From: Naegleria gruberi
Taxonomy: Eukaryota
Reading direction: 5' to 3' (one strand)
Assembly: GCA_000004985.1 (NCBI GenBank)
Contig: GG738882.1
DNA length: 64,000 nucleotides
Under the pieces are notes generated by a model, which searched no databases, was not told the DNA's origin, and worked only from the letters and a program-made list of their open reading frames with translations. The translations under genes were made by a program, and so were the position numbers. Positions 1 through 64,000 of this stretch are shown piece after piece (position 1 is the first letter of the stretch; the number at the start of each line of letters is the position of its first letter).

Positions 1-721
1 TTATTCCTAATGAAAAAGCTTTTTGTTCAAATTGATGATGTTAAAAAATTATTAACCGAAAAAGCTCGAGCTGCACGCCGTTGAATATTCTCTCAAATCG
101 AAAAATGATGAGACTAAGCGTAGAGAGTGTTGTTGTTCACTAATTTTTTTTATAGTTTTTGTTGGTTGCGGTTTGCTAAAAAAACTGTAACGTTTTGGCG
201 GGCATGTAAAAATAAATTAATCACTTTTATACTTATTAATACTGTCTGCAGTATAGGACATTAAAAAGTTTGATTTAAACCTATCTTTTAACAATAGTGT
301 TACCTAACCCTAGCCTACATTTCCTATGATAAACATCACAATTAATATCCATACACAACATTGATATTCCTTAGTCCTTCAAGGTTCTCCAAAGTTCAAG
401 CTTAAATCCAATCAAAATCTTTTTAAAAAATCCCTCAATTAACTTTCAAGTTCATTTCCTTATGATATAATTTGATTTCGAAGAAAGCTTATCATATTGT
501 TGGGAAATTAACAATCCCAAAAGATCATCTGAACTCCGAGGAGCATATCCTCATGAACATTGAAATATCAATATAAAAAGGACGTATTAAACATCGCAAC
601 AAATCGCATGTAAGCACAATCTATGAAATCTTGATTTTGCCTATCTTCAAAAGTATAAATTCGTCATGTCCAATAGGAAATTAAACAAAAAAACAATTCC
701 AACAACAAATAAGAAGAAAAA

Positions 722-1265
722 ATGGCTCCAACACTTCTCCATACCATGATCCGAGTTGGTAACTTGGAAAAGTCTATCAACTTTTATTGTAATATTTTCG
801 GAATGAAGGAAAAGAGAAGAAGTGATTATCCTGAAGGTAAATTTACTCTTGCCTTCATTGGATATGAAAATGATGCTCATGAAATTGAATTGGTAAGCTT
901 GGCTTTATCAAATTATTTAATTAATATTATAATATTTAATGTTGTTGGATTAATAATTATTAAAATTTGATGAATTTAAATAATAATACTAATTAGACTT
1001 ATAATTATGGTGTTGAAAAGTATGATATTGGTACTGGATTCGGACATTTGGCTATTGGTGTTGAGGATATTTACTCTGTTGTTGAACAAGTTAGAGAATG
1101 TGGTTGTAAGGTATGTCATTATCATAGTTTTTAAAGCTTTAATTTCTAATAATTTAGGTTACAAGAGAACCAGGTCCAATGAAGCACGGCACTACTGTTA
1201 TTGCCTTTGTTGAAGATCCTGATGGATACAAGGTCGAACTCATTGAACGTAAAACAATGATTTAA
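722..1265 (+). CDS. glyoxalase I (lactoylglutathione lyase); exons ~722..892, 997..1110, 1158..1265
   Basis: The spliced product is [29 protein letters not shown]...HEIEL|[22 protein letters not shown]...|[35 protein letters not shown]. It is colinear with GloA-type glyoxalase I motifs (HTMLRVGDL, ELTYNWGV, GHIAxx[19 protein letters not shown]). Intron 1 is GTAAGC...AATTAG (104 nt) and intron 2 is GTATGT...ATTTAG (47 nt). Both junctions restore the frame. Confidence 0.9.
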
Positions 1266-1348
1266 ATTAAATTTTACATTTTAACACAATTATTGGAGAG
1301 GTTTTTCCTTTATATATTCCTAGGATACATATTTACAATTATATTCAA

Positions 1349-3519: not shown

Positions 3520-3731
3520 ATTTTACTATTGATTCAGAATTGAGCAATTGTTTTGATTTACTCAAAGCACATCCAAAAAGATATTTTGTGGAACTATTGA
3601 AATAACATTGGAAAATCTCGAGTGAAAATAAGACTCATTTGGTTATTGAGAAAAAGTTACCTTAATTTGATTAAGACAATAATCTTTTAAACTAATTGCT
3701 TTAAACCTTGATGTAATGATAGTAATTACTA

Positions 3732-6186: not shown

Positions 6187-6787
6187 TTTCTTTAATTATT
6201 ATGTAATTTACTATCTCGCTTGCTGATGGCATCGGAAAACATCAAACTCTATCATTTCGAATGTACACTTGTTTCATGATTAATACAATTCAATATAAAC
6301 AACAATATTTGTACAATATTAATATTAATATTGATGAAATTCTGTTTGTTTTCATCAATTAATTAAATTCTCAGAGAACATTTTTTTTCTAATTTTCAAA
6401 TCAAATCACCTCTGATCTATTTAAATACTATGTGATTATTGCTATTGTATCAATTCAAAGTCTCTAATAAGAGAAAGCTCACCTTAGAGGGAATTTTAAA
6501 TTTTTATATTTTTTTCAAATTTAAAAAAAAGATCATCACGAGAAAATTCTTCAAACCTTTTTGATTGTTTTTGGTTTTCTACAAAGCTCAAAATTGGATT
6601 CATCATCAGAGTATAATTGCTATTGGGCGAGAATATATTTTATGCTTGGTTGTGTGATTTATTGGTAAAATTCATCATCCCGAACATTAAAATAGAACGT
6701 TGAAAATTATAAATATAATAACATCAATCATCACGATAATAATATCTATTTAAAAAGTACGACAATAATATCAACAAAAATCAAAGA

Positions 6788-8386
6788 ATGGACCACGGAA
6801 TTGTTCTTAATTTTGAACAGGAAAGAGAGCAATTGGAATCGTCTTTTGGATCCTTTCGTCCAAAGCGTTATCATACTCTCCGAAAGGAATTGAAACTGCA
6901 AAGTAGAAGCAAACGTAAACCTAATACACCATCATCTGAATTTTCCATGAAAAAACAATCAACCTACTTGGAGTGGAGAAAGTTTTTATTAGAACAAAAA
7001 GGGCAAACTTTTGCTTTTGTACAACATAATCCTTCTATGAAATTATCACCACAAGATACCCTGATGGTATTTGAAGCAAAGAAACAACAAGATCAAATGA
7101 AACCACCACAGTTTTTATTCCTCTCGGGTGGAACGACAAATCTTGGAGATAAGAAACATAAGAGAACACAAAGTAATAGACTCTCAGATGGTGGATCTTC
7201 CTATCAGGATCACTTGGATTCTTCTCAAATTTTAAATACAGGAGACGATACTGGATCAGAGGATAATGTAGATACTGCCGACACTATTAGTCAAACTGCT
7301 CCACGAACTAAATTATCTGAAGTTTATGAATTTGTCGGAATGCACCACATTTTCGAAGTCGGAAATGGATATGACGGAGTGGAAGTCACTTCAATCAAGT
7401 TTGCCAATGATAATAATGATTTGTTAGCTTTTGGTGCAACAGATGGTTGCATTTATATTGCTACAGCATGGAAAAAACCAGAAATTATACACAAATTGAA
7501 AGGGCACAAGGATGCCATCCTAGATTTTGACTGGTCACTGAGTAACGAGTACATTCTCAGTGTTTCTAAAGATTCAACAATTAGAATATGGAACACCACT
7601 ACTGGTGCTTGTATTAGAATTCTTGATAAGCAGGGAACGGTTAGGGCAGTGAAATTCTTCCCAAGAAATCCAAACTTTTTCTGTGTAGGTTTTGAAGGAG
7701 GACTTGTTGGTTTATACAATCTGAGTACTGGTAAATTAGTGGAAAAACTCAAAATTAACAAATTATCGATGGGAATGGGTAGTTTTGTCAATATTAACAT
7801 GTCACTAGGAGGAAGTAATCATGTTACTTCTGTTTTTTTCTCTACACAGGGAGATCAAATATTTATTGGAGATGTGACTGGTTTCTTGTGGATTTATGAG
7901 TTTGATATTAACAAACTCTGTTTTGGTAAATTAGTACAGAAAATTAAGGTATCACTCAATGGAAAAGCCATCACTTCTATTGATTATCAATTGTGGACTG
8001 GAAATTCTTCTAAAGTTAATCCTAGACTCTTGGTGAGTGCTATGGATAGTTATGTTCACCTCTTCCAATATAGCCAAACATCTGCAAAATTTGTAGAATC
8101 GATAAGATTCCCAGTCTCTCAAAAGAATCACAGTGTAAAGAGTCACTTTTGTCCTCTTGTTTCATTCATGGCCAGTTCATGCTTTGTGACAGGAAGTGAA
8201 TCGACGGAAATTCTTTTCTATTCTACCAAGTTTGGAGCTTCAAATGCAATTAACAGATTAATGGGTCACGCCTCTCCAGTTCTGGACGTCTCGTGGTCAT
8301 ATGATGAAACATTATTGGCCAGTTGTGACATGTCTGGTGTGGTAATACTTTGGAAGAGAAGACCTTTGGAAGATAAGGATGTATAA
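6788..8386 (+). CDS. WD40-repeat protein (532 aa, single exon)
   Basis: Start codon is ATG. WD40 units include LLAFGATDGCIYIATAW, KGHKDAILDFDWSLSNEYILSVSKDSTIRIWN, HASPVLDVSWSYDETLLASCDMSGVVILWK. The N-terminus is basic and S-rich low complexity. Confidence 0.8.
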   Translation: MDHGIVLNFEQEREQLESSFGSFRPKRYHTLRKELKLQSRSKRKPNTPSSEFSMKKQSTYLEWRKFLLEQKGQTFAFVQHNPSMKLSPQDTLMVFEAKKQQDQMKPPQFLFLSGGTTNLGDKKHKRTQSNRLSDGGSSYQDHLDSSQILNTGDDTGSEDNVDTADTISQTAPRTKLSEVYEFVGMHHIFEVGNGYDGVEVTSIKFANDNNDLLAFGATDGCIYIATAWKKPEIIHKLKGHKDAILDFDWSLSNEYILSVSKDSTIRIWNTTTGACIRILDKQGTVRAVKFFPRNPNFFCVGFEGGLVGLYNLSTGKLVEKLKINKLSMGMGSFVNINMSLGGSNHVTSVFFSTQGDQIFIGDVTGFLWIYEFDINKLCFGKLVQKIKVSLNGKAITSIDYQLWTGNSSKVNPRLLVSAMDSYVHLFQYSQTSAKFVESIRFPVSQKNHSVKSHFCPLVSFMASSCFVTGSESTEILFYSTKFGASNAINRLMGHASPVLDVSWSYDETLLASCDMSGVVILWKRRPLEDKDV

Positions 8387-8522
8387 ATTGTTAAATAAAT
8401 TTAAATTGAATTCTACTCTGATTCAAAAACTAAAACTAGATTCAAGACCTTGGAATAAATTAATGTTCATTTTGTTATGTTTTAAACCTTGGAATAAATT
8501 AATTTTTATTTACATTCACTAA

Positions 8523-11148
8523 TTAATCAGTACCAACTAGTTGTCTTTCCACTACTTGTTTGTAAAGACCTCCCTTTTGAAGCAGATTGAAATGCTCTCC
8601 TTGTTCCACAACTGAACCTTCCTCAATGACACAAACCTTATTGGCCTTTATCACTGTGGCAAGTTTGTGAGCTATAACGATAACAGTCCTTCCATTCATT
8701 AATGAATTGAGAGCTTGTTGAACTTGGCTGTCATATTGTACTTCTAAAGAATGAGAATATTCGTCCAAAATTAAAATCTTCGGATCCTTCAAAAGGATTC
8801 TAGCAATGGCGATTCTTTGACGTTCAGAGGCAGAAAGTCTGACTCCTCTTTCTCCAATAATAGTATCATATCCATCTTTGAAATTAGAAATAAATTCATG
8901 AACGTTTGCCTTCTTGGATGCTTCCATAACTTGCTCGTCTGTTGGAGCTTCATCACCAGTCCATCCGTAACAAATATTTTCACGAATTGAGGCACTAAAC
9001 ATGGCAGGATCCTGAGTAAGGAGACCAATGTTCTTTCTCAACCAAACAGGATCAATTTGAGTAAGTGGAACACCATCCAATGTAATTTGTCCATCATTTG
9101 GATCATAGAATCTTTGTAAGAGTGAGACAATGGTGGTCTTTCCTTGTCCTGGTCTACCAACCAAAGCCAAAATACTTGATGGTGACATTTCAAGGTTAAT
9201 CTTATTGAGTACTGAGTGTTCGGTTCTTGAAGGATAGGCAAATGAAACATCGTGCAAAACAATGTGACCATTCAATTTTGGAAGTTCTCTAGTATCGGAT
9301 TCCATAACGTTTGGATTACGTCTTTCAATGGCTGGAATACGTTGAAGTAAGTTGTAAACTCTAACAGTAGCCTCCAAAGCTCTAAACAATTCAACCAGCA
9401 ATCCACTCAAGACACCAAAGCTGGCAGCAACCAACAAGGTATACATGATGAAACTAATAAGAGATCCAACAGTTATTTCACCATCCACAACAAGTCTTCC
9501 ACCAAACCACAAAACGAGAATAATACTAGCATTACCAGCAAACATCATACCACCTGAAAAGATACCATTAGCAAATGAGAATTTTCTTGCCAATGAGAGA
9601 GTCAAATCAATAGCAGCACTGTACAAGCTAATATGCTTGGTTTCCTTTGCAAAACTACGAACAGTTCTCAAATTGGAGAAGGACTCTTCAGCAACATCAG
9701 TTGAATTGGCCAAAGCATCTTGTGTTCTCCTTGTGATATTCTTAATATATTTGGCATAAATTAAAGAAATAAAAACGAGTGGAGGTATGACAGCAAGCAT
9801 GATCAGAGTCAATTTCCAAGATATTATCAATAGGAAAACAATTCCACCAATTAATTGAGCCACATAACGTAAAAACATTGAAAGATTCACTGTAACGGCA
9901 TTTTCCAATGATTTTGTATCTGAACTCAATCTATTCAACAATTCTCCAGTTTTAGTGATATCAAAAAATCCAACTTCTTGAACAATGATGGAATTGAAAA
10001 GATCCTTTCTGAGACGGGCAACAGCACGTTCTCCAGCATATGTAAAACTATTATATTTGTAAAATATATAAATGAAATTGATTAGAAGAAACATACCAAA
10101 AGTTTCTCAATGCAGTTGTAAGGCCAATACCAGCCACAACACCTAGTATAATGAGAGCCATTTGATTAATATATTCCTTTCCTGTAGTTCCTGCAGGGAT
10201 GGTATTAATAATCTCGCCAACATAAATTGGTAGGAATAGGCTCAAACCAGTACTAACAATCAAAAATATAATTCCGAAAAAGACGAGTGGTGTTTGTCTA
10301 AATCCTAATTTCATCAACCACATAAATTGAGTAAAACTAATTCTTGGAAAGCTCTTGAAGAGTTTAGCAATGCCAGTAGCACTAACTGGATTTTCATCTA
10401 TAGCATTTGGCTTTAAATAATCATTATACGTATCATCAATATGGTTATCGTAGTATAACAATTCTCGATCGTAATCATCCTCCATGGAAATTTTGGTAGT
10501 GTTTGTAATTTCAACTTCAACATCATCACCATCTTCGAGGTTAACATTTTTCATTTCCTTGTGTTCATTGTGATTTGTTAATTTGACTTTACGATGTTCA
10601 TCATAGTCTTTTTCATTTTCCTCTTCTTCCTCGCTCAGTGATGGTTCATGATGATGGTTCAGGTCAGAACCGAGACTATTACTACTGGAAGTAGTATTAG
10701 CATTTCCATTTGTAGAAGTCAGGGAACCCTTAGAGACCAGAATTTGCTTTCTCTTCGGGAGTGGTGGAGTTTCCAAATCTTGAGCCTCTTCTTCCTTATT
10801 AACATTTCCAAAACGAACACGTAACTTGGATCTATCATCTTTAAAAGCAGGTGTATTTTCTATTGGTTCTTCATCATCCGAATCATTATTCTTCTTTGGT
10901 GTTATTGTCGAATCAACATCATGAGCAGCAGCCGTTGTTGATGGTGATGATGATTTCGATCCGTTAATTGTAGGTGATTTTTCCTTCTTTGTATGATGAG
11001 AGTCTTCATCTTGTTCTTCTTCATGATGATGATGATGCGAGGAAGAAAGTACAATATCATCCAACTCTTCCTCTAAATCTTCGTCTTCCTCATCTTCCAA
11101 AAGTCTCGATTGAGAACGCGTTTTTAACGAGCCAAGTAGTGATGGCAT
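8523..11148 (-). CDS. ABC transporter, B-family half transporter (TMD-NBD) with ~270-aa acidic/His-rich N-terminal extension; exons ~10096..11148 and ~8523..10047
   Basis: The TMD carries the ABCB motif ERAVARLRKDLFNSIIVQEVGFFD. Walker A is LVGRPGQGKTT. The ABC signature is LSASERQRIAIARILL. Walker B is ILILDE. The H-loop is TVIVIAHKL. A 48-nt intron (GTATGT...AATAG) splits ...ALRNF from ...FTYAGERAV. The N-terminal extension contains SSSHHHHHEEEQDEDSHH and D/E runs. Confidence 0.85.
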
Positions 11149-11455
11149 TTTTTTAAAGTTTTTTTTATTTTTTTTAACGTTCGCAAAATTTGTTCTGATG
11201 AGAGAAGTGATGGAAACATTTATGGAAAATTGAACAATCTGGAAGGTGATGTTGTTATGGAAGTATAGTTGTTGGAAGAGGACTGGAAGATATTTGATAT
11301 TTTGAATGGCTCTAAACAGTTTTTGTTGAACGATTGTTTTGCTTGTTGTTGTCCAGATGATAATCTATTCACTTTAAATGGAATACGATTTTTAATAAGT
11401 TAGTATAGGTTCAATGGTTGTTGTACATTTTCAAAAAGGGATAATATCTCAATAT

Positions 11456-12444
11456 TTACAAATTCTTCTTCTTTTTGTTTTCTTCAATCTTGGCATCAAC
11501 ATCGTGTAAATCAAAGATGGAATAGAGTTCAATATTTTCAAAAGTTGGATCGGCAAGTTTTTGCTTTTCATCTGGAAGTGATAATCTATCCTTACTTCTA
11601 TCAACCAAATAGAGAGCTGCCTTAACTTCAATATTATAATCTTCCTTTAGCATTTTGATACCATCCAAAAGTGAAGAACCTGTTGAGAGAGCATCATCAA
11701 CCCAGACAGCATGTAAAAGTGGTGAATCTGGTTTTCTTTCAGTGAATTTTTGTTCACCTTCTAATTGTTGACAAGTACCAGTTGACTTTCTATTCTTTCT
11801 AATATACAAAAAATCATAAGCTTCATAAACTGTTTTAGATCCTTGTTTTTCATGAAGAGTTGATGCATAGGCTGCAAATTGACTCACTAACATTCCTCCA
11901 GCCAATTCCATACCAACCAATACGAGAGGTTGTTCGGAGAGATTCTGTTGTGATGGAGGTAAATTTTCAGCTTGCAATGATGGTAAGGTTTGTTGAATAT
12001 GAACCAAGTAATGTCCCATAATTTCCACAATTTTAGGAGCAACTCTCTTATCCATAAAATTTGTACTAGCATTGAGATAATCTATTAGAATTCATAAGTC
12101 CATATTTTCCCATTATTATGATAGCAATAATTTCCATTCAATTAATTAATCCACATTCCGATGATGAAAAAATTTGATCAAGTTAAAAATAGATTAATTC
12201 CAATATTGGATCAGAATTGAGTAAACAATGATCGAATTCATTTAGAATAAATGATTTTAAAAAACCTACAAGGCAATTCAATTCCACTAGTAGCCTTGAA
12301 AGGTCCCATCTTTACATTTCTCACAACTCCATTCAATACTTCATCATACAATTCACCACAAGCTTCCACTCCACTTGAGAGTGATTCCAAGCTTAATTTA
12401 GTGGATTGTTTGGCTTTTTCAAGGAGGGAAAGGTGTGCTGGCAT
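11456..12444 (-). CDS. orotate phosphoribosyltransferase-like (type I PRTase fold), divergent; exons ~12269..12444 and ~11456..12081
   Basis: Exon 1 (VKMGPFKATSGIELP) matches the OPRT motif LKFGEFTLKSG. The 187-nt intron (GTAGGT...CTAATAG) joins ...GIELP to YYLNAS..., giving LPYYLNAS, which aligns with the OPRT motif SPYFFNAG. The PRPP-binding motif is LLHAVWVDDALSTGSSL. Also present are VLVGMELAGGML and YLVDRSKDRL. The C-terminus is a poly-K tail. Confidence 0.65.
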
Positions 12445-32382: not shown

Positions 32383-34320
32383 GTGGGAAGCATTCCTTCA
32401 ACACCAAGAACAACATTAGCTTCTACTACCAATCAAGTTGCTCATCCGAATGTTGTTGTCTCCTCCTCACCATCAATTCATCATCAACCAATGACAAGTC
32501 AATCGACGACGAATTATTACCATACCGATCATGCACAGTATCATTCATTCAGTAATGAAGTTGGAGTTTCGTCTGCCCTTCCTCCCAAGATGCAACAAAA
32601 GAAGAGACATAACACAACTGCCTCGACAAGTTCTTCCTCATCCTCCTCTTCTAATGAGCATACCACCATATTGGAAATTGCTAGTGGTGAAGCTTTGTCA
32701 TCAACAACTAATGGTATAACACCTGCGACTCCAATTCCAGTCCGACAATATCAGCAACCAACAATTCAACCAATTCTCACAATGAATTCCAACACCATTC
32801 AACCACATCAACAGCAGCAGCAACATGGATACTTTATGAATGGATCCACTCAATCATCATTTGATAATACTCAAATGCAATCTCATCAAGGACACGTCAT
32901 GATAATGATGGACGATGATAAGGGAGAAGCAAAGAAGAGAAAGAGAAGAAATCAAGCCAAATCAGCTTGTGAGCAATGTAGAAGAGCTCACACTGCCTGT
33001 ACTGATCAAAAACCTTGTCTCAGATGTGTCAAGTTAGGATTGCAATGTGTTGAAGCTCCTAAAAAGAAACAAAAACCAAATGGTAAAAGCTCATCTGGCA
33101 ATAACAGTCCTCCTCCAACAAATGTTAATAATACATACAGTACAGATACATCTCCTTATGGTAGTGATTTGAGCAGTTTAGCCACCAGAATTCAAAACAT
33201 TCCCAATATGAATCCAATTGCAAGTGAGCAACATCAACATGAATCAGTAATGAATTCAGCAGGAAAGAGCTCTTCAAGTTCTTCCTCTTCTGATGGTGAC
33301 TACTCTTCTGGAACAACCAACAGTCCAACTCAACAAACAACCTCCTATCCTCCTCAAGTTCCTACCATCCAAACTCCACAACCTTCCTTTGCAATTAATA
33401 GATTAACACCTCTCTCAGTTTCTCAATTCCAAACCTTAATTAAGGAAGGCAATGTAGAAAAGGTGCACCAAGTTTGTGAAATTTCCTATCAACTCATTAC
33501 TATGAGTGTGGATGAAATCAAGACTATCTATCCAGTGCTCGTTCCAGCTGGACAAGAACAGTTAACCTTCAATACCAACAGAAATGGGTTCTTATTGGCC
33601 TATTTGTATGGTAAATTCAATATTATGAACGCCATGAGAGATATTTTGTGGAAGCAATACAGATCAGAATACTTTAGTTTCCTTTTCAAGTTAATTTCAT
33701 TTGATGATGATAAGGCACTCATTAGAATGTATCTTCAAGGTATTCAATATGATTTGAATACTGTTGAAAATGAAAAGAGTATTGGTCTGTTGAGTTTCTG
33801 TGCCTGTTGTGGAAGAATTGAAATTTTCAAATTGCTCTGTGAAGAATTCCAATGCTCCCTTTTCCAAGTGAGAAATGAAAAGTATTTACCAATACACTTT
33901 GCCTGTAGTTACTCAAATGTAGAAATTGCAGAATACATCCTCCAAAAGTATCCAATCCAATTGGATATTCAAGTTAACAATAATAGTTCTCCACTATTGG
34001 TTTCAGCAGCATATGGCAGTCTCAAAAGTATCAAATTTTTAATTGATCGAGGAGCCAATGTAAATTTATGTGACATTGATGGTCTGTATGCTATTCACTA
34101 TGCCGTCAAGTACAATCACTTTGCTGTTGTCCAATATCTAGCTCAACATAATGCTGATTTTTCTGTCAAGAATAACTCTGGTCAAACAATATTTGACTTC
34201 GCGACAGATTCAGACAAGAAGTTTATGCTAGAACTAATTGTACAAAACAAAAACCTTAATGATAGAATTTTATTACAGGAGGATATAATCAAAAACATGA
34301 AACCAACATCATGTAAATAA
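32383..34320 (+). CDS. Zn(II)2Cys6 (GAL4-type) DNA-binding protein with C-terminal ankyrin repeats (645 aa)
   Basis: The binuclear cluster is KSACEQCRRAHTACTDQKPCLRCVKLGLQCVE (C-x2-C-x6-C-x6-C-x2-C-x6-C). Ankyrin units include LLSFCACCGRIEIFKLLCEE...LPIHFACSYSNVEIAEYIL...SPLLVSAAYGSLKSIKFLIDRGANVNLCDIDGLYAIHYAVKYNHFAVVQYLAQHNADFSVKNNSGQT. The N-terminus is S/T/Q-rich. The start codon appears to be GTG in the track, and the first in-frame ATG (MTSQST) lies ~35 codons downstream. Confidence 0.75.
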   Translation: MGSIPSTPRTTLASTTNQVAHPNVVVSSSPSIHHQPMTSQSTTNYYHTDHAQYHSFSNEVGVSSALPPKMQQKKRHNTTASTSSSSSSSSNEHTTILEIASGEALSSTTNGITPATPIPVRQYQQPTIQPILTMNSNTIQPHQQQQQHGYFMNGSTQSSFDNTQMQSHQGHVMIMMDDDKGEAKKRKRRNQAKSACEQCRRAHTACTDQKPCLRCVKLGLQCVEAPKKKQKPNGKSSSGNNSPPPTNVNNTYSTDTSPYGSDLSSLATRIQNIPNMNPIASEQHQHESVMNSAGKSSSSSSSSDGDYSSGTTNSPTQQTTSYPPQVPTIQTPQPSFAINRLTPLSVSQFQTLIKEGNVEKVHQVCEISYQLITMSVDEIKTIYPVLVPAGQEQLTFNTNRNGFLLAYLYGKFNIMNAMRDILWKQYRSEYFSFLFKLISFDDDKALIRMYLQGIQYDLNTVENEKSIGLLSFCACCGRIEIFKLLCEEFQCSLFQVRNEKYLPIHFACSYSNVEIAEYILQKYPIQLDIQVNNNSSPLLVSAAYGSLKSIKFLIDRGANVNLCDIDGLYAIHYAVKYNHFAVVQYLAQHNADFSVKNNSGQTIFDFATDSDKKFMLELIVQNKNLNDRILLQEDIIKNMKPTSCK

Positions 34321-53032: not shown

Positions 53033-56000
53033 GTGAAAGGCATTACAATTCCATCCACAAACAAAATGTCCAACAATATCCTTGTTAATTTGCTTGTGTT
53101 AACTTTTTGCTTGTGTTTTGTTGCGTTTGCCAGCTTTTCCAATGCAGCTGCTGTGAAATATAAGATTACAACGGTACTTAGTTCTCTCGAAACACCGAAA
53201 TCTATTCACGTACTAACAAGTGGTGATATTTATTTTGGTGAATATAACACAATATCAAGTAGAGTTAAAAAGTGAGTATTTGATCTTTAAAACTTGACTT
53301 ACTTTCGAAGACTGTCTTCAGGTTCAACAACAACAATTGTTGGTGGTGGAACAACAACCACTGATGGAGCTTCTCTTACAGACGCATTATTGAGTAAGTT
53401 TTTTTAGATTGGTCAACCAAACTAATTCTTCACAATAGCTGGATTATATTTTTGCTTTGACGAAACCAACAACAAAATGTACATTAGTGACGAAGGCTTA
53501 CATAAAATAAGACTGGCCGATCTTGGAAATAATAATATTAACACATTAACCAGTAATTCCTACAGTCCAACATTTATAACATTAGATAGTGTAAACAGTA
53601 GAGTGCTATTCACTGATCCTGAAGATTATAGTGTTCGTTATTTCAGCTTATCATCTCCATCAACCGTAACACCTGTCAGTGCTTCGACAAATACTGTTTC
53701 TGGTATCACAGTTTCGACAGCTGGAGAATATTATTTCGCAGATGGATCCAGCAAAGTCATAAAACTTACTTTACCAAATACGAAAAGTAATTATGTAACT
53801 GGATTGAGTAATCCTCAAGGATTATTTTGGAGATCTAATGAACTGTTCATTGTAGATGCTGATAGTACAACTCCTAAAATTAAGAAGTATGATGGAACAA
53901 CTCTTACAGATATTGCTGGAGGTGGATCTTCTGGTTGTGCGAATGATATTGAGGCAACAAGTTGCAAATTATCAAGCTCCATCTCAGGTATTTACGTCAC
54001 CAACAAGAATGAAATTTACATCACTGAAGCCAGAAGTTCACCTAATGGAAATATCAAGAAAATTTATCCATATTGTGATAGTGGTTATCAATTATCTTCT
54101 GATGGAAAAACATGTGATCCTATTTGTTATTCTAAAGTAGGAGANNNNNNNNNNNNNNNNNNNNNNNNNNNNNNNNNNNNNNNNNNNNNNNNNNGGCTTA
54201 TCTGGTCCAACAGGAATATTCTACACAACGTATAATGAAATATTCATTTCTGATTCTGGAAATAAGAAGATCAAGAAATATGAAGGGGGATCAACCTCAG
54301 ATTTTGCTGGTGCCAGTGGAGCTGGGACTACTTGTGCAGAAGACTCAGAAGCTCTCTCTTGCTATTTTTCAACTAGTATTTATGGTATTTTCGTTACTGA
54401 CAAGAATGAAGTTTATGTAACTGAAGGAATATCCGACACTGGAACTGTTAAGAAAATTTATCCATACTGTGATAGTGGTTATCAATTAACATCTGATGGA
54501 AGATCATGTGTTCCTATTTGTTATTCCAAAGTAGGGGATGCTGCCTGTGGAGGACCAACTCAAGGAGCTTGTAGTGCTCCTGATACTTGTCAATGTACCA
54601 CCAATTATTTTGGAAACGAATGTGGCTCACCAAAGTGTTATGGAAAAACATCCAATGCCTGTAATAATCAAGGTACCTGCACTGCAGTCGATACTTGTGT
54701 TTGCAATGCTAACTATTTTGGAAATGAGTGCACTTCACCAAAGTGTTATGGAAAAACCTCCAACGCTTGTAACAATCAAGGTACTTGTACTGCAGTCGAC
54801 ACTTGTGTTTGTAATGCCAACTATTATGGAAACGAATGTACTTCTCCAAAGTGTTATGGAAAAACATCCAATGCCTGTAACAATCAAGGTACTTGCACTG
54901 CAGTCGACACTTGTGTTTGCAATGCTAATTACTACGGAAATGAGTGCACTTCCCCAAAGTGTTATGGAAAAACATCCACAACAGCTTGTAACTTGAAAGG
55001 TACCTGCACAGCAGTTGACTCTTGTCAATGTAATACCAATTACTATGGAAATGAATGTACAGTCACAACTTGTGATGGCAAGTATTCCAATACTTCAGTT
55101 GCTTGTAACAACCAAGGAACTTGTGCTGATTATAATACTTGCAATTGTAATACTAATTATGGAGGTTCTTATTGCAGTCTTCCAAAATGTGGTGGAATTC
55201 TGTCAGATAATCCATCCGTCTGTTCAGCAAATGGCACCTGTGCTGGTGTTAATAATTGTCAATGTAATTCTCTCTATACAGGATCCAATTGTGAAACTCC
55301 TATTTGTTATGGAATTCAAGCCACTCAAACATCAACTGTGTGCTCTGGACAAGGTATTTGTGTGGCTGGTGACAAGTGTGTTTGTAAAGATTATTCCAAA
55401 TATACTGGACTAAAGTGTGATTCTCCAATTTGTAACTCAAAACCTTCAACAGATCCAAATGTTTGTAACTCTAGAGGTACATGTACTGCACCAAATACTT
55501 GCCAATGTACTGATACTAATCTATTTGGTGGAAATGATTGTGAACTATTCAAGTGTAATGGTACACTCTCCAATCAAGGATCAGTTTGTAGTGGAAGAGG
55601 TACATGTTTAGCCAATAATATTTGTCAATGTACTGATACTAGCTCTTGGGGAGGAAATTTTTGTTCAATTCCTAAATGTAATGGAATTCTTGCCAATGAC
55701 ACTAGAAAATGTTCATCTAGAGGTAATTGTATTTCACCAAACACTTGCCAATGTTATGAGAGTAATAATTATGGTGGATCAGATTGTGAAATTTTCAAAT
55801 GTGGTGGAATCCTTTCTACTAATACTTCTAAAGTTTGTTCTGGAAAGGGTACTTGTAAATCATTGAATAACTGTGAATGTTTACCTAATTATGGTGGTGC
55901 TAATTGTGAACTTGTTAAATGTTTTGGCATTTTACAAAACGAAAGTTCAGTATGTAGTGGAAAAGGTTCATGTAAGAATGTTGATACATGTCAATGTGAT

Positions 56001-57656
56001 AATGGTTATGGAGGTTCTAATTGTAATCTTATTAGATGTTTTGGTGTCTATACTAACCAAACTAATTTGATTTGTAATAATGGAAATGGTACTTGTATTG
56101 CTCCTGACACTTGTTCATGCAGTACTGGGTGGACAGGATCAAAGTGTGATGTTGCAATTTGTAATGGAAAACTTTCTAATGACACACGTGTCTGTTCATC
56201 AAAAGGTCAATGTGTGGGTCCAAACAATTGTAAATGTTCCACCAATTACTATGGAACAAACTGTGAAAAGACAACTTGTAATTCTGTTGCTTCAGATGAT
56301 AGCACAGTTTGTTTTGGTCATGGTTCTTGCCTTTCGTATAATAATTGTAATTGCTCAACTGGATATGGACCTTCCACAACTTGTGAATTCCCAATTTGTT
56401 ATGGATTATTGGCAAATGACAGCCGTGTCTGTAATGATACTGACAAGTTTTGTTTTGCACCAAATGATTGTAAGCCAAAGAATCCAACTTGTTATGGAAT
56501 TGAAAAGGCAGACAGTAGATCATGTTCTGGACACGGAATTTGTTTATCAACTGATAATTGTCGATGTGATTCTAGCTACTTTGGTGAACAATGTCAATAT
56601 TTCAAATGTTATGGTGTTGAATTCAACTCATCATCAGTCTGTAGCTCACACGGTTCATGTGACAGTGTAAATAATTGTAATTGTCGAGATGGTTACGGAG
56701 GAAACAATTGTGAACTTGTTAAATGTAGTGGAATTTTACAAAATTCAAGCATGGTTTGTAGTGGAAGAGGTAAATGTGTTGATGTTAACACATGTAATTG
56801 TGACAGTGGATATTATGGCTCTGATTGTCAATTGACCACCTGTTTTGGTATTGAACAAGCAAGCTCACAAGTTTGTAACAATAGAAATGGTACTTGTCTT
56901 TCGTTTGATAATTGTAACTGTCTTGATGAAAGCAAGTGGTTCGGATCAGCATGTAATACGACGTATTGTTATGGGAAAACTTCATTGGATTCTAATGCCT
57001 GTAACTCTCAAGGTAATTGTGTCAATTTTAACACATGCCAATGTAAACAAAATTATGCTGGCAATCAATGTCACTTGAGATACCTTTCTCAATCATTCAC
57101 CTTATCATTCAATAGCACTACTGATTTTATTGGAGAAATTTCCACCATACTCACCCTCAGCATTCAAGATTCCACATTCCTCGATTTTTATGCCAACAAA
57201 TCTGTCGACATTAAGTTGGAATTCCTTCTTGACAATCAAGCTCTCACTTCAGCAATATCTTCCCAACAATCACTATATCCAAGCATGTCTTTCTCTCTCC
57301 CATCCTCTCTCTCCAAAGGATCACTCACAGCAAAGGCAACTCTCTACAATTCCACAACACCAATCTCATTCCAAGTTGCAACCGAAAGTGCCTTAATACT
57401 CCAACAACGAAACACTCCAATTGCCTCAAACTCTATTCCATCTCGTGCTGGAGAACCATCAATTCAAGGAAATAGTAATGCAGGAGTTATTGCTGCAGCT
57501 GTGGTCGTTCCAATCGTTTCAATTGCAGCCATTGGAGGTGGTGTTGCTGTGGTCATTACTGTTGTGGTCTTGTTGAAGAAGAAGGCAGCTGCTACTTTGG
57601 CCAAGGATATTGCAACAGCTGCTCACACTGATGTTGAATTGGCAGGTAATCTTTAA
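53033..57656 (+). CDS. type I membrane protein: signal peptide, NHL repeats, ~28 EGF-like Cys repeats, TM, short tail; exons ~53033..53271, ~53311..53393, ~53439..54144, [50-N gap], 54195..57656
   Basis: The signal peptide is NILVNLLVLTFCLCFVAFASFSNA. The 39-nt and 45-nt introns give ...SSRVK|K|LSSGSTTTIVGGGTTTTDGASLTDALL|T|GLYFCFDETNNKMYISDEGL. NHL-like units recur (IYITEARSS, VYVTEGISD). The EGF-like pattern C.G....S..C.SRG.C..P..C.C....YGG..C runs from ~54540 to ~57060. The TM is GVIAAAVVVPIVSIAAIGGGVAVVITVVVLL and the tail ends AGNL-TAA. The frame is continuous from 54195. The track begins its ORF at a TTG at 54993 only because no start-like codon occurs in the repeats. Confidence 0.7.
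54145..54194. other. assembly gap (50 N) inside the NHL/EGF gene
   Basis: A run of n characters. The coding frame differs on the two sides, which is expected for an arbitrary-length gap. Confidence 0.99.
54628..55059 (+). repeat. four tandem 108-bp (36-codon) repeats encoding the EGF-like module SPKCYGKTSNACNNQGTCTAVDTCVCNANY(F/Y)GNECT
   Basis: Copies start at ~54628, 54736, 54844 and 54952. The first three are ~90-95% identical at the nucleotide level, with almost all differences at synonymous third positions. The fourth copy is diverged. Confidence 0.85.
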
Positions 57657-57805: not shown

Positions 57806-60800
57806 NNNNNNNNNNNNNNNNNNNNNNNNNNNNNNNNNNNNNNNNNNNNNNNNNNNNNNNNNNNNNNNNNNNNNNNNNNNNNNNNNNNNNNNNNNNNNNN
57901 NNNNNNNNNNNNNNNNNNNNNNNNNNNNNNNNNNNNNNNNNNNNNNNNNNNNNNNNNNNNNNNNNNNNNNNNNNNNNNNNNNNNNNNNNNNNNNNNNNNN
58001 NNNNNNNNNNNNNNNNNNNNNNNNNNNNNNNNNNNNNNNNNNNNNNNNNNNNNNNNNNNNNNNNNNNNNNNNNNNNNNNNNNNNNNNNNNNNNNNNNNNN
58101 NNNNNNNNNNNNNNNNNNNNNNNNNNNNNNNNNNNNNNNNNNNNNNNNNNNNNNNNNNNNNNNNNNNNNNNNNNNNNNNNNNNNNNNNNNNNNNNNNNNN
58201 NNNNNNNNNNNNNNNNNNNNNNNNNNNNNNNNNNNNNNNNNNNNNNNNNNNNNNNNNNNNNNNNNNNNNNNNNNNNNNNNNNNNNNNNNNNNNNNNNNNN
58301 NNNNNNNNNNNNNNNNNNNNNNNNNNNNNNNNNNNNNNNNNNNNNNNNNNNNNNNNNNNNNNNNNNNNNNNNNNNNNNNNNNNNNNNNNNNNNNNNNNNN
58401 NNNNNNNNNNNNNNNNNNNNNNNNNNNNNNNNNNNNNNNNNNNNNNNNNNNNNNNNNNNNNNNNNNNNNNNNNNNNNNNNNNNNNNNNNNNNNNNNNNNN
58501 NNNNNNNNNNNNNNNNNNNNNNNNNNNNNNNNNNNNNNNNNNNNNNNNNNNNNNNNNNNNNNNNNNNNNNNNNNNNNNNNNNNNNNNNNNNNNNNNNNNN
58601 NNNNNNNNNNNNNNNNNNNNNNNNNNNNNNNNNNNNNNNNNNNNNNNNNNNNNNNNNNNNNNNNNNNNNNNNNNNNNNNNNNNNNNNNNNNNNNNNNNNN
58701 NNNNNNNNNNNNNNNNNNNNNNNNNNNNNNNNNNNNNNNNNNNNNNNNNNNNNNNNNNNNNNNNNNNNNNNNNNNNNNNNNNNNNNNNNNNNNNNNNNNN
58801 NNNNNNNNNNNNNNNNNNNNNNNNNNNNNNNNNNNNNNNNNNNNNNNNNNNNNNNNNNNNNNNNNNNNNNNNNNNNNNNNNNNNNNNNNNNNNNNNNNNN
58901 NNNNNNNNNNNNNNNNNNNNNNNNNNNNNNNNNNNNNNNNNNNNNNNNNNNNNNNNNNNNNNNNNNNNNNNNNNNNNNNNNNNNNNNNNNNNNNNNNNNN
59001 NNNNNNNNNNNNNNNNNNNNNNNNNNNNNNNNNNNNNNNNNNNNNNNNNNNNNNNNNNNNNNNNNNNNNNNNNNNNNNNNNNNNNNNNNNNNNNNNNNNN
59101 NNNNNNNNNNNNNNNNNNNNNNNNNNNNNNNNNNNNNNNNNNNNNNNNNNNNNNNNNNNNNNNNNNNNNNNNNNNNNNNNNNNNNNNNNNNNNNNNNNNN
59201 NNNNNNNNNNNNNNNNNNNNNNNNNNNNNNNNNNNNNNNNNNNNNNNNNNNNNNNNNNNNNNNNNNNNNNNNNNNNNNNNNNNNNNNNNNNNNNNNNNNN
59301 NNNNNNNNNNNNNNNNNNNNNNNNNNNNNNNNNNNNNNNNNNNNNNNNNNNNNNNNNNNNNNNNNNNNNNNNNNNNNNNNNNNNNNNNNNNNNNNNNNNN
59401 NNNNNNNNNNNNNNNNNNNNNNNNNNNNNNNNNNNNNNNNNNNNNNNNNNNNNNNNNNNNNNNNNNNNNNNNNNNNNNNNNNNNNNNNNNNNNNNNNNNN
59501 NNNNNNNNNNNNNNNNNNNNNNNNNNNNNNNNNNNNNNNNNNNNNNNNNNNNNNNNNNNNNNNNNNNNNNNNNNNNNNNNNNNNNNNNNNNNNNNNNNNN
59601 NNNNNNNNNNNNNNNNNNNNNNNNNNNNNNNNNNNNNNNNNNNNNNNNNNNNNNNNNNNNNNNNNNNNNNNNNNNNNNNNNNNNNNNNNNNNNNNNNNNN
59701 NNNNNNNNNNNNNNNNNNNNNNNNNNNNNNNNNNNNNNNNNNNNNNNNNNNNNNNNNNNNNNNNNNNNNNNNNNNNNNNNNNNNNNNNNNNNNNNNNNNN
59801 NNNNNNNNNNNNNNNNNNNNNNNNNNNNNNNNNNNNNNNNNNNNNNNNNNNNNNNNNNNNNNNNNNNNNNNNNNNNNNNNNNNNNNNNNNNNNNNNNNNN
59901 NNNNNNNNNNNNNNNNNNNNNNNNNNNNNNNNNNNNNNNNNNNNNNNNNNNNNNNNNNNNNNNNNNNNNNNNNNNNNNNNNNNNNNNNNNNNNNNNNNNN
60001 NNNNNNNNNNNNNNNNNNNNNNNNNNNNNNNNNNNNNNNNNNNNNNNNNNNNNNNNNNNNNNNNNNNNNNNNNNNNNNNNNNNNNNNNNNNNNNNNNNNN
60101 NNNNNNNNNNNNNNNNNNNNNNNNNNNNNNNNNNNNNNNNNNNNNNNNNNNNNNNNNNNNNNNNNNNNNNNNNNNNNNNNNNNNNNNNNNNNNNNNNNNN
60201 NNNNNNNNNNNNNNNNNNNNNNNNNNNNNNNNNNNNNNNNNNNNNNNNNNNNNNNNNNNNNNNNNNNNNNNNNNNNNNNNNNNNNNNNNNNNNNNNNNNN
60301 NNNNNNNNNNNNNNNNNNNNNNNNNNNNNNNNNNNNNNNNNNNNNNNNNNNNNNNNNNNNNNNNNNNNNNNNNNNNNNNNNNNNNNNNNNNNNNNNNNNN
60401 NNNNNNNNNNNNNNNNNNNNNNNNNNNNNNNNNNNNNNNNNNNNNNNNNNNNNNNNNNNNNNNNNNNNNNNNNNNNNNNNNNNNNNNNNNNNNNNNNNNN
60501 NNNNNNNNNNNNNNNNNNNNNNNNNNNNNNNNNNNNNNNNNNNNNNNNNNNNNNNNNNNNNNNNNNNNNNNNNNNNNNNNNNNNNNNNNNNNNNNNNNNN
60601 NNNNNNNNNNNNNNNNNNNNNNNNNNNNNNNNNNNNNNNNNNNNNNNNNNNNNNNNNNNNNNNNNNNNNNNNNNNNNNNNNNNNNNNNNNNNNNNNNNNN
60701 NNNNNNNNNNNNNNNNNNNNNNNNNNNNNNNNNNNNNNNNNNNNNNNNNNNNNNNNNNNNNNNNNNNNNNNNNNNNNNNNNNNNNNNNNNNNNNNNNNNN

Positions 60801-61766
60801 NNNNNNNNNNNNNNNNNNNNNNNNNNNNNNNNNNNNNNNNNNNNNNNNNNNNNNNNNNNNNNNNNNNNNNNNNNNNNNNNNNNNNNNNNNNNNNNNNNNN
60901 NNNNNNNNNNNNNNNNNNNNNNNNNNNNNNNNNNNNNNNNNNNNNNNNNNNNNNNNNNNNNNNNNNNNNNNNNNNNNNNNNNNNNNNNNNNNNNNNNNNN
61001 NNNNNNNNNNNNNNNNNNNNNNNNNNNNNNNNNNNNNNNNNNNNNNNNNNNNNNNNNNNNNNNNNNNNNNNNNNNNNNNNNNNNNNNNNNNNNNNNNNNN
61101 NNNNNNNNNNNNNNNNNNNNNNNNNNNNNNNNNNNNNNNNNNNNNNNNNNNNNNNNNNNNNNNNNNNNNNNNNNNNNNNNNNNNNNNNNNNNNNNNNNNN
61201 NNNNNNNNNNNNNNNNNNNNNNNNNNNNNNNNNNNNNNNNNNNNNNNNNNNNNNNNNNNNNNNNNNNNNNNNNNNNNNNNNNNNNNNNNNNNNNNNNNNN
61301 NNNNNNNNNNNNNNNNNNNNNNNNNNNNNNNNNNNNNNNNNNNNNNNNNNNNNNNNNNNNNNNNNNNNNNNNNNNNNNNNNNNNNNNNNNNNNNNNNNNN
61401 NNNNNNNNNNNNNNNNNNNNNNNNNNNNNNNNNNNNNNNNNNNNNNNNNNNNNNNNNNNNNNNNNNNNNNNNNNNNNNNNNNNNNNNNNNNNNNNNNNNN
61501 NNNNNNNNNNNNNNNNNNNNNNNNNNNNNNNNNNNNNNNNNNNNNNNNNNNNNNNNNNNNNNNNNNNNNNNNNNNNNNNNNNNNNNNNNNNNNNNNNNNN
61601 NNNNNNNNNNNNNNNNNNNNNNNNNNNNNNNNNNNNNNNNNNNNNNNNNNNNNNNNNNNNNNNNNNNNNNNNNNNNNNNNNNNNNNNNNNNNNNNNNNNN
61701 NNNNNNNNNNNNNNNNNNNNNNNNNNNNNNNNNNNNNNNNNNNNNNNNNNNNNNNNNNNNNNNNNN
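57806..61766. other. assembly gap (3961 N)
   Basis: A run of n characters. The two 1350-aa 'ORFs' of X residues across it are artefacts. Confidence 0.99.
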
Positions 61767-62560: not shown

Positions 62561-62793
62561 GGGTTTGGGTTTGGGTTTGGGTTTGGGTTTGGGTTTGGTT
62601 TGGGTTTGGGTTTGGTTTGGGTTTGGGTTTGGTTTGGGTTTGGGTTTGGGTTTGGGTTTGGGTTTGGGTTTGGGTTTGGGTTTGGGTTTGGGTTTGGGTT
62701 TGGGTTTGGGTTTGGGTTTGGGTTTGGTTTGGGTTTGGGTTTGGGTTTGGGTTTGGGTTTGGGTTTGGGTTTGGGTTTGGGTTTGGGTTTGGG
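62561..62793 (+). repeat. interstitial telomere-like repeat (GGGTTT)n with GGTTT variant units, ~233 bp, followed by a 50-N gap (62794..62843)
   Basis: The repeat starts abruptly after ...caatatttaa and reads gggtttgggtttgggtttggtttgggtttggg.... The G-rich strand is on + and points toward the window end. Confidence 0.9.
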
Positions 62794-63034
62794 NNNNNNN
62801 NNNNNNNNNNNNNNNNNNNNNNNNNNNNNNNNNNNNNNNNNNNGTCATATAAGGATAGGTCATTAAGGTTTGAATGAATTGATATGAAAATCAATACCAA
62901 TTTTGAAATGCCATTATTAATTGATCTATATATGATATTGTAATTGAAAGATTTTAAAATTAATATGATTTCACTATCTTGACATTTATTATTCTCATGA
63001 TTACACTCCTGACATGTTGAATGATATCAAATTG

Positions 63035-63095
63035 TCATGAAACTGATACAGTGGTGTTTATTCACCATTAGTAAGGTACTGTATCAGTTTCATGA
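63035..63095. repeat. perfect 18-bp inverted repeat (hairpin, 25-nt loop) in subtelomeric unique DNA
   Basis: TCATGAAACTGATACAGT (63035..63052) ... ACTGTATCAGTTTCATGA (63078..63095). Confidence 0.8.
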
Positions 63096-63595
63096 TGATC
63101 TGTATAGTGGATGTCGTTGTCACATCCCTGTAGGTGTCAAGTAGATCAGCCATGTACCATGTATGATGTGGATGAATATCAAAATGATATTAATGTATTT
63201 CATTAACATATATAGATGTATTGGAAGTGAATTGAAGTGGTATAGATTTCTATCTTCGATGTTAGTATTGGTCAGTTGACAAGTTGAATAGTTAATTTCC
63301 TGAAATGATACCATAGTATTTGAAACTGATATATATTGTTATTAACATGATTTACAAGGTGATATATTGGTATGAATTGATTTTGAAATGTTTACATTGA
63401 TATTCTAATTGTCTAATCTATTATATGAAATTAACTTATATAAGTCATTATAATGATGTAATATTATGTTATTATATGATTATATATTCAATTTGGAGTA
63501 TATTGATATATAATATATTGATTTATAATGAGTATTTATTGAGAAAATCAATTAAGATGACTAAAAATCAAAATGTTGGGTCTGACCTTAGTCGT

Positions 63596-64000
63596 GGGTT
63601 TGGGTTTGGGTTTGGGTTTGGGTTTGGGTTTGGGTTTGGGTTTGGGTTTGGGTTTGGGTTTGGGTTTGGGTTTGGGTTTGGGTTTGGGTTTGGGTTTGGG
63701 TTTGGGTTTGGGTTTGGGTTTGGGTTTGGGTTTGGGTTTGGGTTTGGGTTTGGGTTTGGGTTTGGGTTTGGGTTTGGGTTTGGGTTTGGGTTTGGGTTTG
63801 GGTTTGGGTTTGGGTTTGGGTTTGGGTTTGGGTTTGGGTTTGGGTTTGGGTTTGGGTTTGGGTTTGGGTTTGGGTTTGGGTTTGGGTTTGGGTTTGGGTT
63901 TGGGTTTGGGTTTGGGTTTGGGTTTGGGTTTGGGTTTGGGTTTGGGTTTGGGTTTGGGTTTGGGTTTTGGGTTTGGGTTTGGGTTTGGGTTTGGGTTTGG
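63596..64000 (+). repeat. terminal telomeric array (GGGTTT)n, >=405 bp, running to the last base of the window
   Basis: About 67 near-perfect hexamers, with one GGGTTTT variant near 63965. The G-rich strand runs 5'->3' toward the end, which is the orientation expected of a true chromosome terminus. Confidence 0.9.

What the first reader, a model, noticed from the sequence alone, without database searches (positions are those of the whole stretch)
63596..64000. Window ends in a (GGGTTT)n telomere with G-strand pointing outward, so this is a chromosome terminus
At least 405 bp of near-perfect hexamer repeats run to the last base. The orientation is G-rich 5'->3' toward the end, as in functional telomeres. 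The unit T3G3 differs from the vertebrate/Physarum TTAGGG and the plant TTTAGGG. It also differs from the rDNA-derived, A(G)n-type chromosome ends of Dictyostelium discoideum. If the source is a dictyostelid-type amoebozoan, this documents a simple-repeat telomere and the gene content immediately proximal to it: receptor-like NHL/EGF genes about 6-11 kb from the end, with a 4-kb unsequenced gap between.
Basis: partly seen in the sequence, partly recalled or inferred. Interest (0 to 1): 0.6.

Follow-up and report, generated by a model that had tools for sequence, protein, structure and literature searches.

The report
Naegleria gruberi TTTGGG telomere, already reported
The window ends in a genuine telomere-type (TTTGGG)n array, but the genome is the amoeboflagellate Naegleria gruberi, for which this candidate telomere repeat was already published in 2013, and its link to the neighbouring genes rests only on scaffold gaps.

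Summary
Bases 63596-64000 are 67.5 head-to-tail GGGTTT units with one extra T. All lie on the + strand and run to the last base, and chance expectation is zero.

The scaffold tip is therefore two ~1-kb contigs, each ending in G-strand-outward telomere repeat. They have unrelated subtelomeric sequences and hang behind a 3,961-N gap.

The organism is not a dictyostelid. A window ORF is 532/532 identical to NAEGRDRAFT_50789 of Naegleria gruberi (Heterolobosea). Fulneckova et al. 2013 (PMC3622300) already reported TTTGGG as the candidate telomere of N. gruberi, from scaffold ends of this assembly.

The repeat alone is not diagnostic, because (GGGTTT)8 or longer is mostly internal in prokaryotic genomes. 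Position and polarity fit a telomere, and an unrelated environmental eukaryote assembly (JAESGV01) shows 21/21 arrays terminal and outward.

Verdict: a telomerase-type telomere array, already known in silico and still without experimental validation. The proximal gene content is only loosely anchored. Interest is low.

The parts
63596..64000 (+). Terminal (GGGTTT)n array: 62 perfect units, one GGGTTTT variant at 63962, then 5 units. The G-rich strand points toward the window end.
62844..63595 (+). Unique AT-rich subtelomeric sequence of the last contig (contig B). It has no similarity to contig A or to the rest of the window, and no tRNA or Rfam family above threshold.
62794..62843 (.). 50-N scaffold gap separating the two telomere-ended contigs.
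62561..62793 (+). Second (GGGTTT)n array of 233 bp, about 39 units including four GGTTT variants, with the same polarity. It ends exactly at the gap, so it is also a contig end.
61767..62560 (+). Unique AT-rich subtelomeric sequence of the penultimate contig (contig A), unrelated to contig B.
57806..61766 (.). 3,961-N scaffold gap between the gene-bearing sequence and the telomere-bearing mini-contigs.
53477..57656 (+). Last gene before the big gap: an EGF-repeat (teneurin-like EGF) protein, interrupted by a 50-N gap at 54145-54194. It contains a 108-bp coding tandem repeat at 54606-54978.

Best explanation
This is a telomerase-type telomere array of Naegleria gruberi with unit TTTGGG, assembled at the tip of a JGI Sanger scaffold.

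Shown here:
- a near-perfect hexamer array of at least 405 bp that runs to the end of the sequence with the G-rich strand 5'->3' outward;
- a second array of the same repeat and polarity that also terminates a contig;
- no copy of the repeat anywhere in the 57.8 kb of gene-bearing sequence;
- the organism is N. gruberi.

Inferred from general telomere biology, not tested here:
- the G strand is synthesised by telomerase from an RNA template carrying about 1.5 copies of CCCAAA;
- the array ends in a 3' G overhang;
- it is bound by Myb/TRF-like duplex binders and OB-fold single-strand binders that cap the end;
- G3T3 tracts can form G-quadruplexes.

The assembled length of 405 bp is a read-length limit, not the true array length.

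The two arrays in tandem are most likely two alternative telomere-bearing contigs that the scaffolder placed in series. They could be two haplotypes of this end, or ends of different chromosomes pulled in through telomere-repeat mate pairs. I estimate this at about 0.55, against about 0.35 for a real interstitial array followed by a distal element and the true terminus.
For: Array anatomy and statistics: (93 of 93 probe matches on the + strand and inside the arrays; chance 0).

Both arrays end their contigs with outward polarity.

Organism: nearest named relatives Willaertia magna 62%, Acrasis kona 39%; cluster contains XP_002674745.1 NAEGRDRAFT_50789, on a 381,539-bp scaffold; 532/532 identity.

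[quoted passage not shown] Paramecium telomerase naturally makes TTTGGG alongside TTGGGG (PMC5855555).

Independent behaviour of the repeat as a chromosome cap: in WGS set JAESGV01, an unidentified AT-rich eukaryote, 21 of 21 arrays of at least 8 units are at a contig end with the G strand outward (binomial p = 9.5e-7).

For the scaffolding reading: the two subtelomeres share no local similarity. Each contig is only about 1 kb, roughly one to two Sanger reads.
Against: No experiment and no raw reads are available. Other N. gruberi scaffold ends could not be fetched, so recurrence of the repeat at other ends of this genome rests on the 2013 paper only, and its supplementary table is not held.

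The repeat is not telomere-specific. In prokaryotic genome assemblies, (GGGTTT) arrays of at least 8 units are 92 internal, 18 terminal-outward and 10 terminal-inward. In other metagenome contigs they are 68 internal, 20 outward and 11 inward.

The orthologous gene block in N. lovaniensis and N. fowleri is internal, at least 135 kb from a contig end. This gives no comparative support for a subtelomeric location.

No telomerase component was examined. The library holds no paper on Naegleria telomerase or telomere biochemistry.
Confidence: 0.85

Rival explanations
1. The structure is real as scaffolded. An interstitial telomeric array (62561-62793 and beyond) is followed by a ~0.75-kb distal element and then the true terminal array. 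This would be the result of telomere healing or capture, or a yeast-Y'-like subtelomeric module sitting between two telomere tracts.
For: Both arrays have the same polarity and are placed in series by the assembler. The proximal array carries four degenerate GGTTT units while the distal one is almost perfect, as expected if the inner tract is old and no longer maintained by telomerase.
Against: No read-through is assembled. The inner array ends at a gap, so nothing shows unique DNA distal to it in a continuous sequence. The distal element shows no repeat-family behaviour within the window. None of the 21 JAESGV01 telomeric contigs shows an additional internal array of at least 48 bp. GGTTT variants could equally be G-compression errors in Sanger read tails.
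Confidence: 0.3
2. The array is an ordinary internal hexanucleotide microsatellite, or a collapsed repeat that merely broke the assembly. It is not a chromosome end.
For: (GGGTTT) arrays of at least 8 units are common as internal arrays in public data, including bacterial chromosomes. One example is a 558-bp internal array in Companilactobacillus nantensis, L185. Whether the window end is the scaffold end is unknown.
Against: Two independent contigs both stop in the repeat with the G strand outward, and none has it inward. The rest of the window has zero copies. The published survey found the repeat at N. gruberi scaffold ends. The T3G3 unit fits the TxGy telomere consensus.
Confidence: 0.05
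3. The telomere-bearing mini-contigs belong to other chromosomes or to a cloning chimera. They were attached here only through mate pairs that fall in telomere repeats, so this scaffold end is not itself a chromosome end.
For: The attachment crosses a 3,961-N gap. Each mini-contig is about 1 kb, and the two have unrelated subtelomeres, so at least one is misplaced or allelic. The orthologous region is chromosome-internal in two sister species.
Against: Mate pairs anchored in the unique ~750-800 bp of each mini-contig would give legitimate links. Subtelomeric positions are often not conserved between species at about 74% protein identity.
Confidence: 0.25

Closest known systems
Candidate TTTGGG telomere of Naegleria gruberi (Fulneckova et al. 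2013, Genome Biol Evol 5:468, PMC3622300)
   Same: Same species, same repeat unit, same kind of evidence (arrays at scaffold ends of the JGI assembly), and very probably the same sequence data.
   Different: Nothing substantive. This analysis adds the local anatomy: two telomere-ended contigs in series, unrelated subtelomeres, and gaps.
Ciliate telomeres: Paramecium T2[T/G]G3 (mixed TTGGGG/TTTGGG), Tetrahymena TTGGGG, Oxytricha TTTTGGGG
   Same: Pure TxGy units without A. TTTGGG itself is a natural telomerase product in Paramecium (PMC5855555). The G strand runs outward.
   Different: In Paramecium, TTTGGG is a minority variant produced by template stuttering. Here the array is essentially homogeneous T3G3. 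The lineage (Discoba) is unrelated, so this is convergent.
Canonical TTAGGG / TTTAGGG telomeres (vertebrates, trypanosomatids, plants)
   Same: Array architecture, polarity, and hexamer/heptamer size with a G3 block. TTAGGG is inferred to be ancestral for Excavata (PMC3622300).
   Different: The A is replaced by T (TTAGGG to TTTGGG), or the A is lost relative to TTTAGGG.
Dictyostelium discoideum rDNA-derived chromosome ends
   Same: None beyond being chromosome ends of an amoeboid protist.
   Different: The supergroup is different (Amoebozoa versus Discoba), so the comparison does not apply to this window.
Yeast X-(TG1-3)-Y'-(TG1-3) subtelomere architecture and interstitial telomeric sequences
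   Same: An internal telomere tract followed by a distal element and a terminal tract is what the scaffold shows on paper.
   Different: Continuity across the inner tract is not sequenced here (50-N gap), and no evidence was obtainable that the distal element is a repeated family.

Membership tests
Telomerase-type eukaryotic telomere array | Short tandem TxGy / Tx(A)Gy repeat in a long homogeneous array | tested here: met
   67.5 units of GGGTTT, 99% matches
Telomerase-type eukaryotic telomere array | Located at the end of the sequence, with nothing distal | tested here: met
   The array runs to the last base of the window, and the second array runs to a contig end. This holds at the level of contigs only. 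The physical chromosome end cannot be seen.
Telomerase-type eukaryotic telomere array | G-rich strand oriented 5'->3' toward the terminus | tested here: met
   All 93 probe matches are on the + strand, pointing to the window end.
Telomerase-type eukaryotic telomere array | Same repeat at most other chromosome ends of the same genome, and rare internally | not testable with these tools
   The N. gruberi assembly is not retrievable. Internally there are 0 copies in 57.8 kb of the window. The literature reports the repeat at scaffold ends (PMC3622300), but the supplementary table is not held.
Telomerase-type eukaryotic telomere array | Telomerase RT plus an RNA with a template complementary to the repeat (CCCAAA permutation) | not tested
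   No genome-wide search was possible, and no paper was found in the library.
Telomerase-type eukaryotic telomere array | Bal31 sensitivity and heterogeneous terminal restriction fragments | not testable with these tools
   Wet-lab assay.
Published N. gruberi TTTGGG candidate telomere | Source organism is N. gruberi | tested here: met
   ORF 6788-8386 is 532/532 identical to XP_002674745.1 NAEGRDRAFT_50789. The N. lovaniensis and N. fowleri orthologues are at 74%.
Published N. gruberi TTTGGG candidate telomere | Unit TTTGGG at a scaffold terminus | tested here: met
Interstitial telomeric sequence (for the array at 62561-62793) | Unique sequence contiguous on both sides of the array | tested here: inconclusive
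   The proximal side is contiguous. The distal side is a 50-N gap.
   Naegleria gruberi, Heterolobosea
Ordinary internal hexanucleotide microsatellite | Flanked by unique DNA on both sides, with no polarity preference relative to sequence ends | tested here: not met
   Neither array has distal unique DNA, and both point outward. Compare the prokaryote control: 92 internal, 18 outward, 10 inward.

The most novel reading that the evidence does not exclude
The tandem arrangement is real. An old, slightly degenerate interstitial TTTGGG tract is followed by a captured ~0.75-kb element and a new telomere, recording a telomere-healing or end-capture event in Naegleria. Together with the strictly terminal TTTGGG arrays in at least two unidentified AT-rich environmental eukaryotes (JAESGV01, VFQO01), this would suggest that TTTGGG telomeres are more widespread among protists than the single published in-silico case.
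Probability: 0.25. Interest if true: 0.35.

Novelty: already known. Interest (0 to 1): 0.12.

Why it matters
It matters little beyond housekeeping. It confirms that this N. gruberi scaffold carries the published candidate telomere repeat. It also shows that the terminal 6 kb of the scaffold is a gap-ridden stack of two telomere-bearing contigs, so the sequence should not be used as evidence for which genes are subtelomeric.

The useful residue is a reminder that the Naegleria telomere is still supported only in silico. I found no TRAP, Bal31 or telomerase RNA work. The T3G3 motif also caps contigs of other, unidentified environmental eukaryotes.

Tried and rejected
1. Dictyostelid origin. I tried to read Heidel et al. 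2011, which is not held. Protein homology then showed Heterolobosea/Naegleria, so this was rejected.

2. Homology between the two subtelomeres, or to the rest of the window. None was found.

3. A junction-specific 30-mer probe of contig B in the metagenome collection gave 0 hits.

4. Fetching N. gruberi contigs by exact protein. The genome is not on record.

5. Reaching sister-species chromosome ends through synteny. The orthologous block is internal in N. lovaniensis (about 154 kb into a 718-kb contig) and N. fowleri (about 136 kb into a 717-kb contig), so no termini were reachable.

6. Testing whether terminal-array metagenome contigs are Naegleria:
- blastn and tblastn of the window against all fetched loci found nothing meaningful. 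A tblastx attempt returned no output, possibly because the program is not installed.
- The JAESGV01 AFG1 ATPase has its best named hit in Acrasis kona at 43%.
- The VFQO01 Cu-ATPase has its best named hits in plant HMA5 at about 41%.
Neither organism is Naegleria, so there is no genus-level corroboration.

7. Rfam and tRNA scans of the terminal 2.2 kb gave only a sub-threshold miRNA-like hairpin match and no tRNA.

8. Literature on Naegleria telomerase or TERT. Nothing relevant was found. The supplement of PMC3622300 is not held.

9. NHL repeats in the proximal genes were not detected by Pfam in the ORFs tested.

Full report
OBSERVATION. The last 405 bases of the window (63596-64000) are a near-perfect tandem array of GGGTTT. 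There are 62 perfect units, a single GGGTTTT variant at 63962, and five further units up to the last base. Tandem Repeats Finder reports 67.5 copies, 99% matches and score 803. A three-unit probe with up to one mismatch matches 93 times. Every match is on the + strand and inside the arrays described here, against an expectation of 0 in 100 dinucleotide-preserving shuffles. The 4-kb unsequenced gap is also real (57806-61766, 3,961 N).

A second array of the same repeat in the same orientation lies at 62561-62793. It is 233 bp, about 39 units, four of them shortened to GGTTT. It stops exactly at a 50-N gap at 62794-62843. The scaffold tip is therefore laid out in this order:
- gene-bearing sequence up to 57805;
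- 3,961 N;
- contig A, 61767-62793, ending in telomere repeat;
- 50 N;
- contig B, 62844-64000, ending in telomere repeat.

The unique parts of A (794 bp) and B (752 bp) show no similarity to each other or to anything else in the window (global alignment; blastn with word size 11). Each contig is about the size of one or two Sanger reads. The assembled 405 bp is therefore a technical lower bound, and two different telomere-adjacent sequences have been stacked at one scaffold end.

ORGANISM. A WD40 ORF at 6788-8386 has its nearest named relatives in Willaertia magna (62%) and Acrasis kona (39%), both Heterolobosea. The 90% cluster that contains the window's protein includes XP_002674745.1 / EFC42001.1, NAEGRDRAFT_50789 of Naegleria gruberi, on a 381,539-bp scaffold. 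The 74% cluster holds the N. lovaniensis and N. fowleri orthologues. The window ORF is 532/532 identical to the N. gruberi protein. The 33% GC content, the long intron-poor ORFs and the JGI-style sized gaps also seem consistent with that assembly, as I recall it. The Dictyostelium comparison is therefore beside the point.

PRIOR KNOWLEDGE. Fulneckova et al. 2013 (PMC3622300) searched public assemblies for terminal minisatellites. [quoted passage not shown] They note that no telomere information had been available for this genome, and they infer TTAGGG as ancestral for Excavata. Their supplementary table is not held. The finding is thus a rediscovery from the same data. TTTGGG is also a natural telomerase product in Paramecium, mixed with TTGGGG (PMC5855555). 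I found no experimental work on Naegleria telomeres or telomerase in the library, so the published status remains 'in-silico candidate'.

IS THE REPEAT DIAGNOSTIC BY ITSELF? No. Eight or more perfect units occur in many public contigs.
- In the prokaryotic genome collection the arrays are 92 internal, 18 terminal-outward and 10 terminal-inward. One is a 558-bp internal array in Companilactobacillus nantensis, and many lie in Paenibacillus chromosomes.
- Among 120 metagenome loci, the contigs outside JAESGV01 split 68 internal, 20 outward and 11 inward, with no significant polarity bias.

Position and polarity carry the argument. In the window, both arrays end their contigs, both point outward, and the remaining 57.8 kb has none.

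INDEPENDENT EXAMPLE. One WGS set in the metagenome collection, JAESGV01, has 21 contigs with the array. All 21 arrays are at a contig end with the G strand outward (p = 9.5e-7). These contigs are AT-rich (20-39% GC). They carry long intron-free ORFs, including a Ty3/gypsy-type pol directly next to one telomere and two PPR-DYW deaminase genes. Their AFG1 ATPase is at best 43% identical to Acrasis kona, so the organism is an unidentified eukaryote and not Naegleria. A second set, VFQO01 (L054, L078), has eukaryote-type genes and terminal outward arrays, but its Cu-ATPase is closest to plant HMA5 at about 41%. These sets show that T3G3 behaves as a chromosome cap in nature. They do not add evidence for N. 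gruberi itself.

WHAT COULD NOT BE DONE. The N. gruberi assembly is not retrievable with these tools, and a contig-B junction probe found nothing in metagenomes. The syntenic block in the sister species is chromosome-internal. It lies about 154 kb into a 718-kb N. lovaniensis contig and about 136 kb into a 717-kb N. fowleri contig, with the direction corresponding to the window's telomere pointing into the long arm. I therefore could not inspect other Naegleria termini. The lack of conserved subtelomeric position slightly weakens the linkage between the genes and the telomere. A metagenome contig (L001, ENA ERZ929261) is 98.5-98.9% identical to window 3190-12136. This shows a near-identical strain in the environment, but the contig does not reach the end.

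MECHANISM.
- Shown: array composition, terminal position at contig level, polarity, and absence of internal copies.
- Inferred from established telomere biology: synthesis of the T3G3 strand by telomerase on a CCCAAA-permuted RNA template, a 3' G overhang, capping by duplex (Myb/TRF-like) and single-strand (OB-fold) binders, and G-quadruplex potential of G3T3 tracts.

For the two arrays in series I weigh three readings:
- Two alternative telomere-bearing contigs (haplotypes of this end, or ends of other chromosomes) placed in series by the scaffolder: about 0.55.
- A genuine interstitial tract followed by a distal element and a new terminus: about 0.3-0.35. The four degenerate GGTTT units in the inner tract fit this, but they could also be Sanger compression errors.
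- A chimera: the remainder.

SIDE CLAIMS. The last gene before the big gap (53477-57656) is an EGF-repeat protein with strong EGF_2 and teneurin-EGF matches. NHL repeats were not detected in the ORFs I tested. Nothing in the terminal 2.2 kb matches a tRNA or an Rfam family above threshold. A perfect 18-bp inverted repeat at 63035-63095, which Infernal scored as a sub-threshold miRNA-like match, folds with z = -6.5. Its meaning is unknown.

VERDICT. The interpretation 'telomere' is well supported (confidence about 0.85), but it was already published for this species. The taxonomic framing is wrong, and the claim about proximal gene content rests on scaffolding across gaps. Novelty: already known. 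Interest is low.

Noticed in passing
window 62561-62793 and 62794-62843: A second (GGGTTT)n array with the same polarity, containing four GGTTT variants, ends at a 50-N gap. Two telomere-ended mini-contigs with unrelated subtelomeres are stacked at the scaffold tip.
   Followed up: yes
window 63035-63095: A perfect 18-bp inverted repeat (CATGAAACTGATACAGTG ... CACTGTATCAGTTTCATG region) lies in the subtelomere of contig B. The DNA fold is -19.9 kcal/mol with z = -6.5. Rfam gives only a sub-threshold mir-2807 match (32.5 bits against a gathering score of 54). Significance unknown.
   Followed up: partly
L021, L029, L030, L036, L041, L055-L058, L067, L074, L076, L080, L086, L096, L101, L104, L105, L109, L117, L124 (WGS set JAESGV01): An unidentified AT-rich eukaryote in the metagenome collection. 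All 21 (GGGTTT) arrays of at least 8 units are at contig ends with the G strand outward. L058 has a Ty3/gypsy-type pol ORF (229-3765) directly next to the telomere, plus two PPR-DYW deaminase genes. Its AFG1 ATPase has its best named hit in Acrasis kona at 43%.
   Followed up: partly
L054 (13311-13358) and L078 (6-59), WGS set VFQO01: Another unidentified low-GC (31%) eukaryote with terminal outward TTTGGG arrays. Its genes include a Cu-ATPase (best named hits plant HMA5 at about 41%), ZIP transporters and a BTB+TLDc protein.
   Followed up: partly
L185 1372-1929; L169 7038-7319; many Paenibacillus loci (e.g. L149, L178, L213): Long internal (GGGTTT)n / (AAACCC)n arrays sit inside prokaryotic genome assemblies, up to 558 bp in Companilactobacillus nantensis. 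I did not determine whether they are coding repeats, real microsatellites or contamination.
   Followed up: no
L001 (ENA ERZ929261, contig k127_255772) versus window 3190-12136: An environmental metagenome contig is 98.5-98.9% identical at the DNA level to the N. gruberi window. A near-identical Naegleria strain is therefore present in that sample.
   Followed up: partly
L259 (N. lovaniensis PYSW02000013.1 143908-165551) and L260 (N. fowleri VFQX01000035.1 125861-147546): Local gene order around the WD40 gene (the ABC transporter follows on the opposite strand) is conserved across three Naegleria species. In the two sister species, however, the block is chromosome-internal rather than within about 56 kb of an end.
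   Followed up: partly
window 54606-54978: A 108-bp tandem repeat (3.5 copies, 87% matches) lies inside the EGF-repeat gene, corresponding to 36-residue cysteine-rich EGF modules.
   Followed up: partly
window 32383-34320 (+): An ORF combines a fungal-type Zn(2)-Cys(6) binuclear cluster domain with C-terminal ankyrin repeats, an unusual pairing for a heterolobosean.
   Followed up: no
window 4144-6186 (-): A 680-aa ORF has weak, sub-threshold CHASE4 and HAMP domain matches, which are bacterial-type sensor modules.
   Followed up: no
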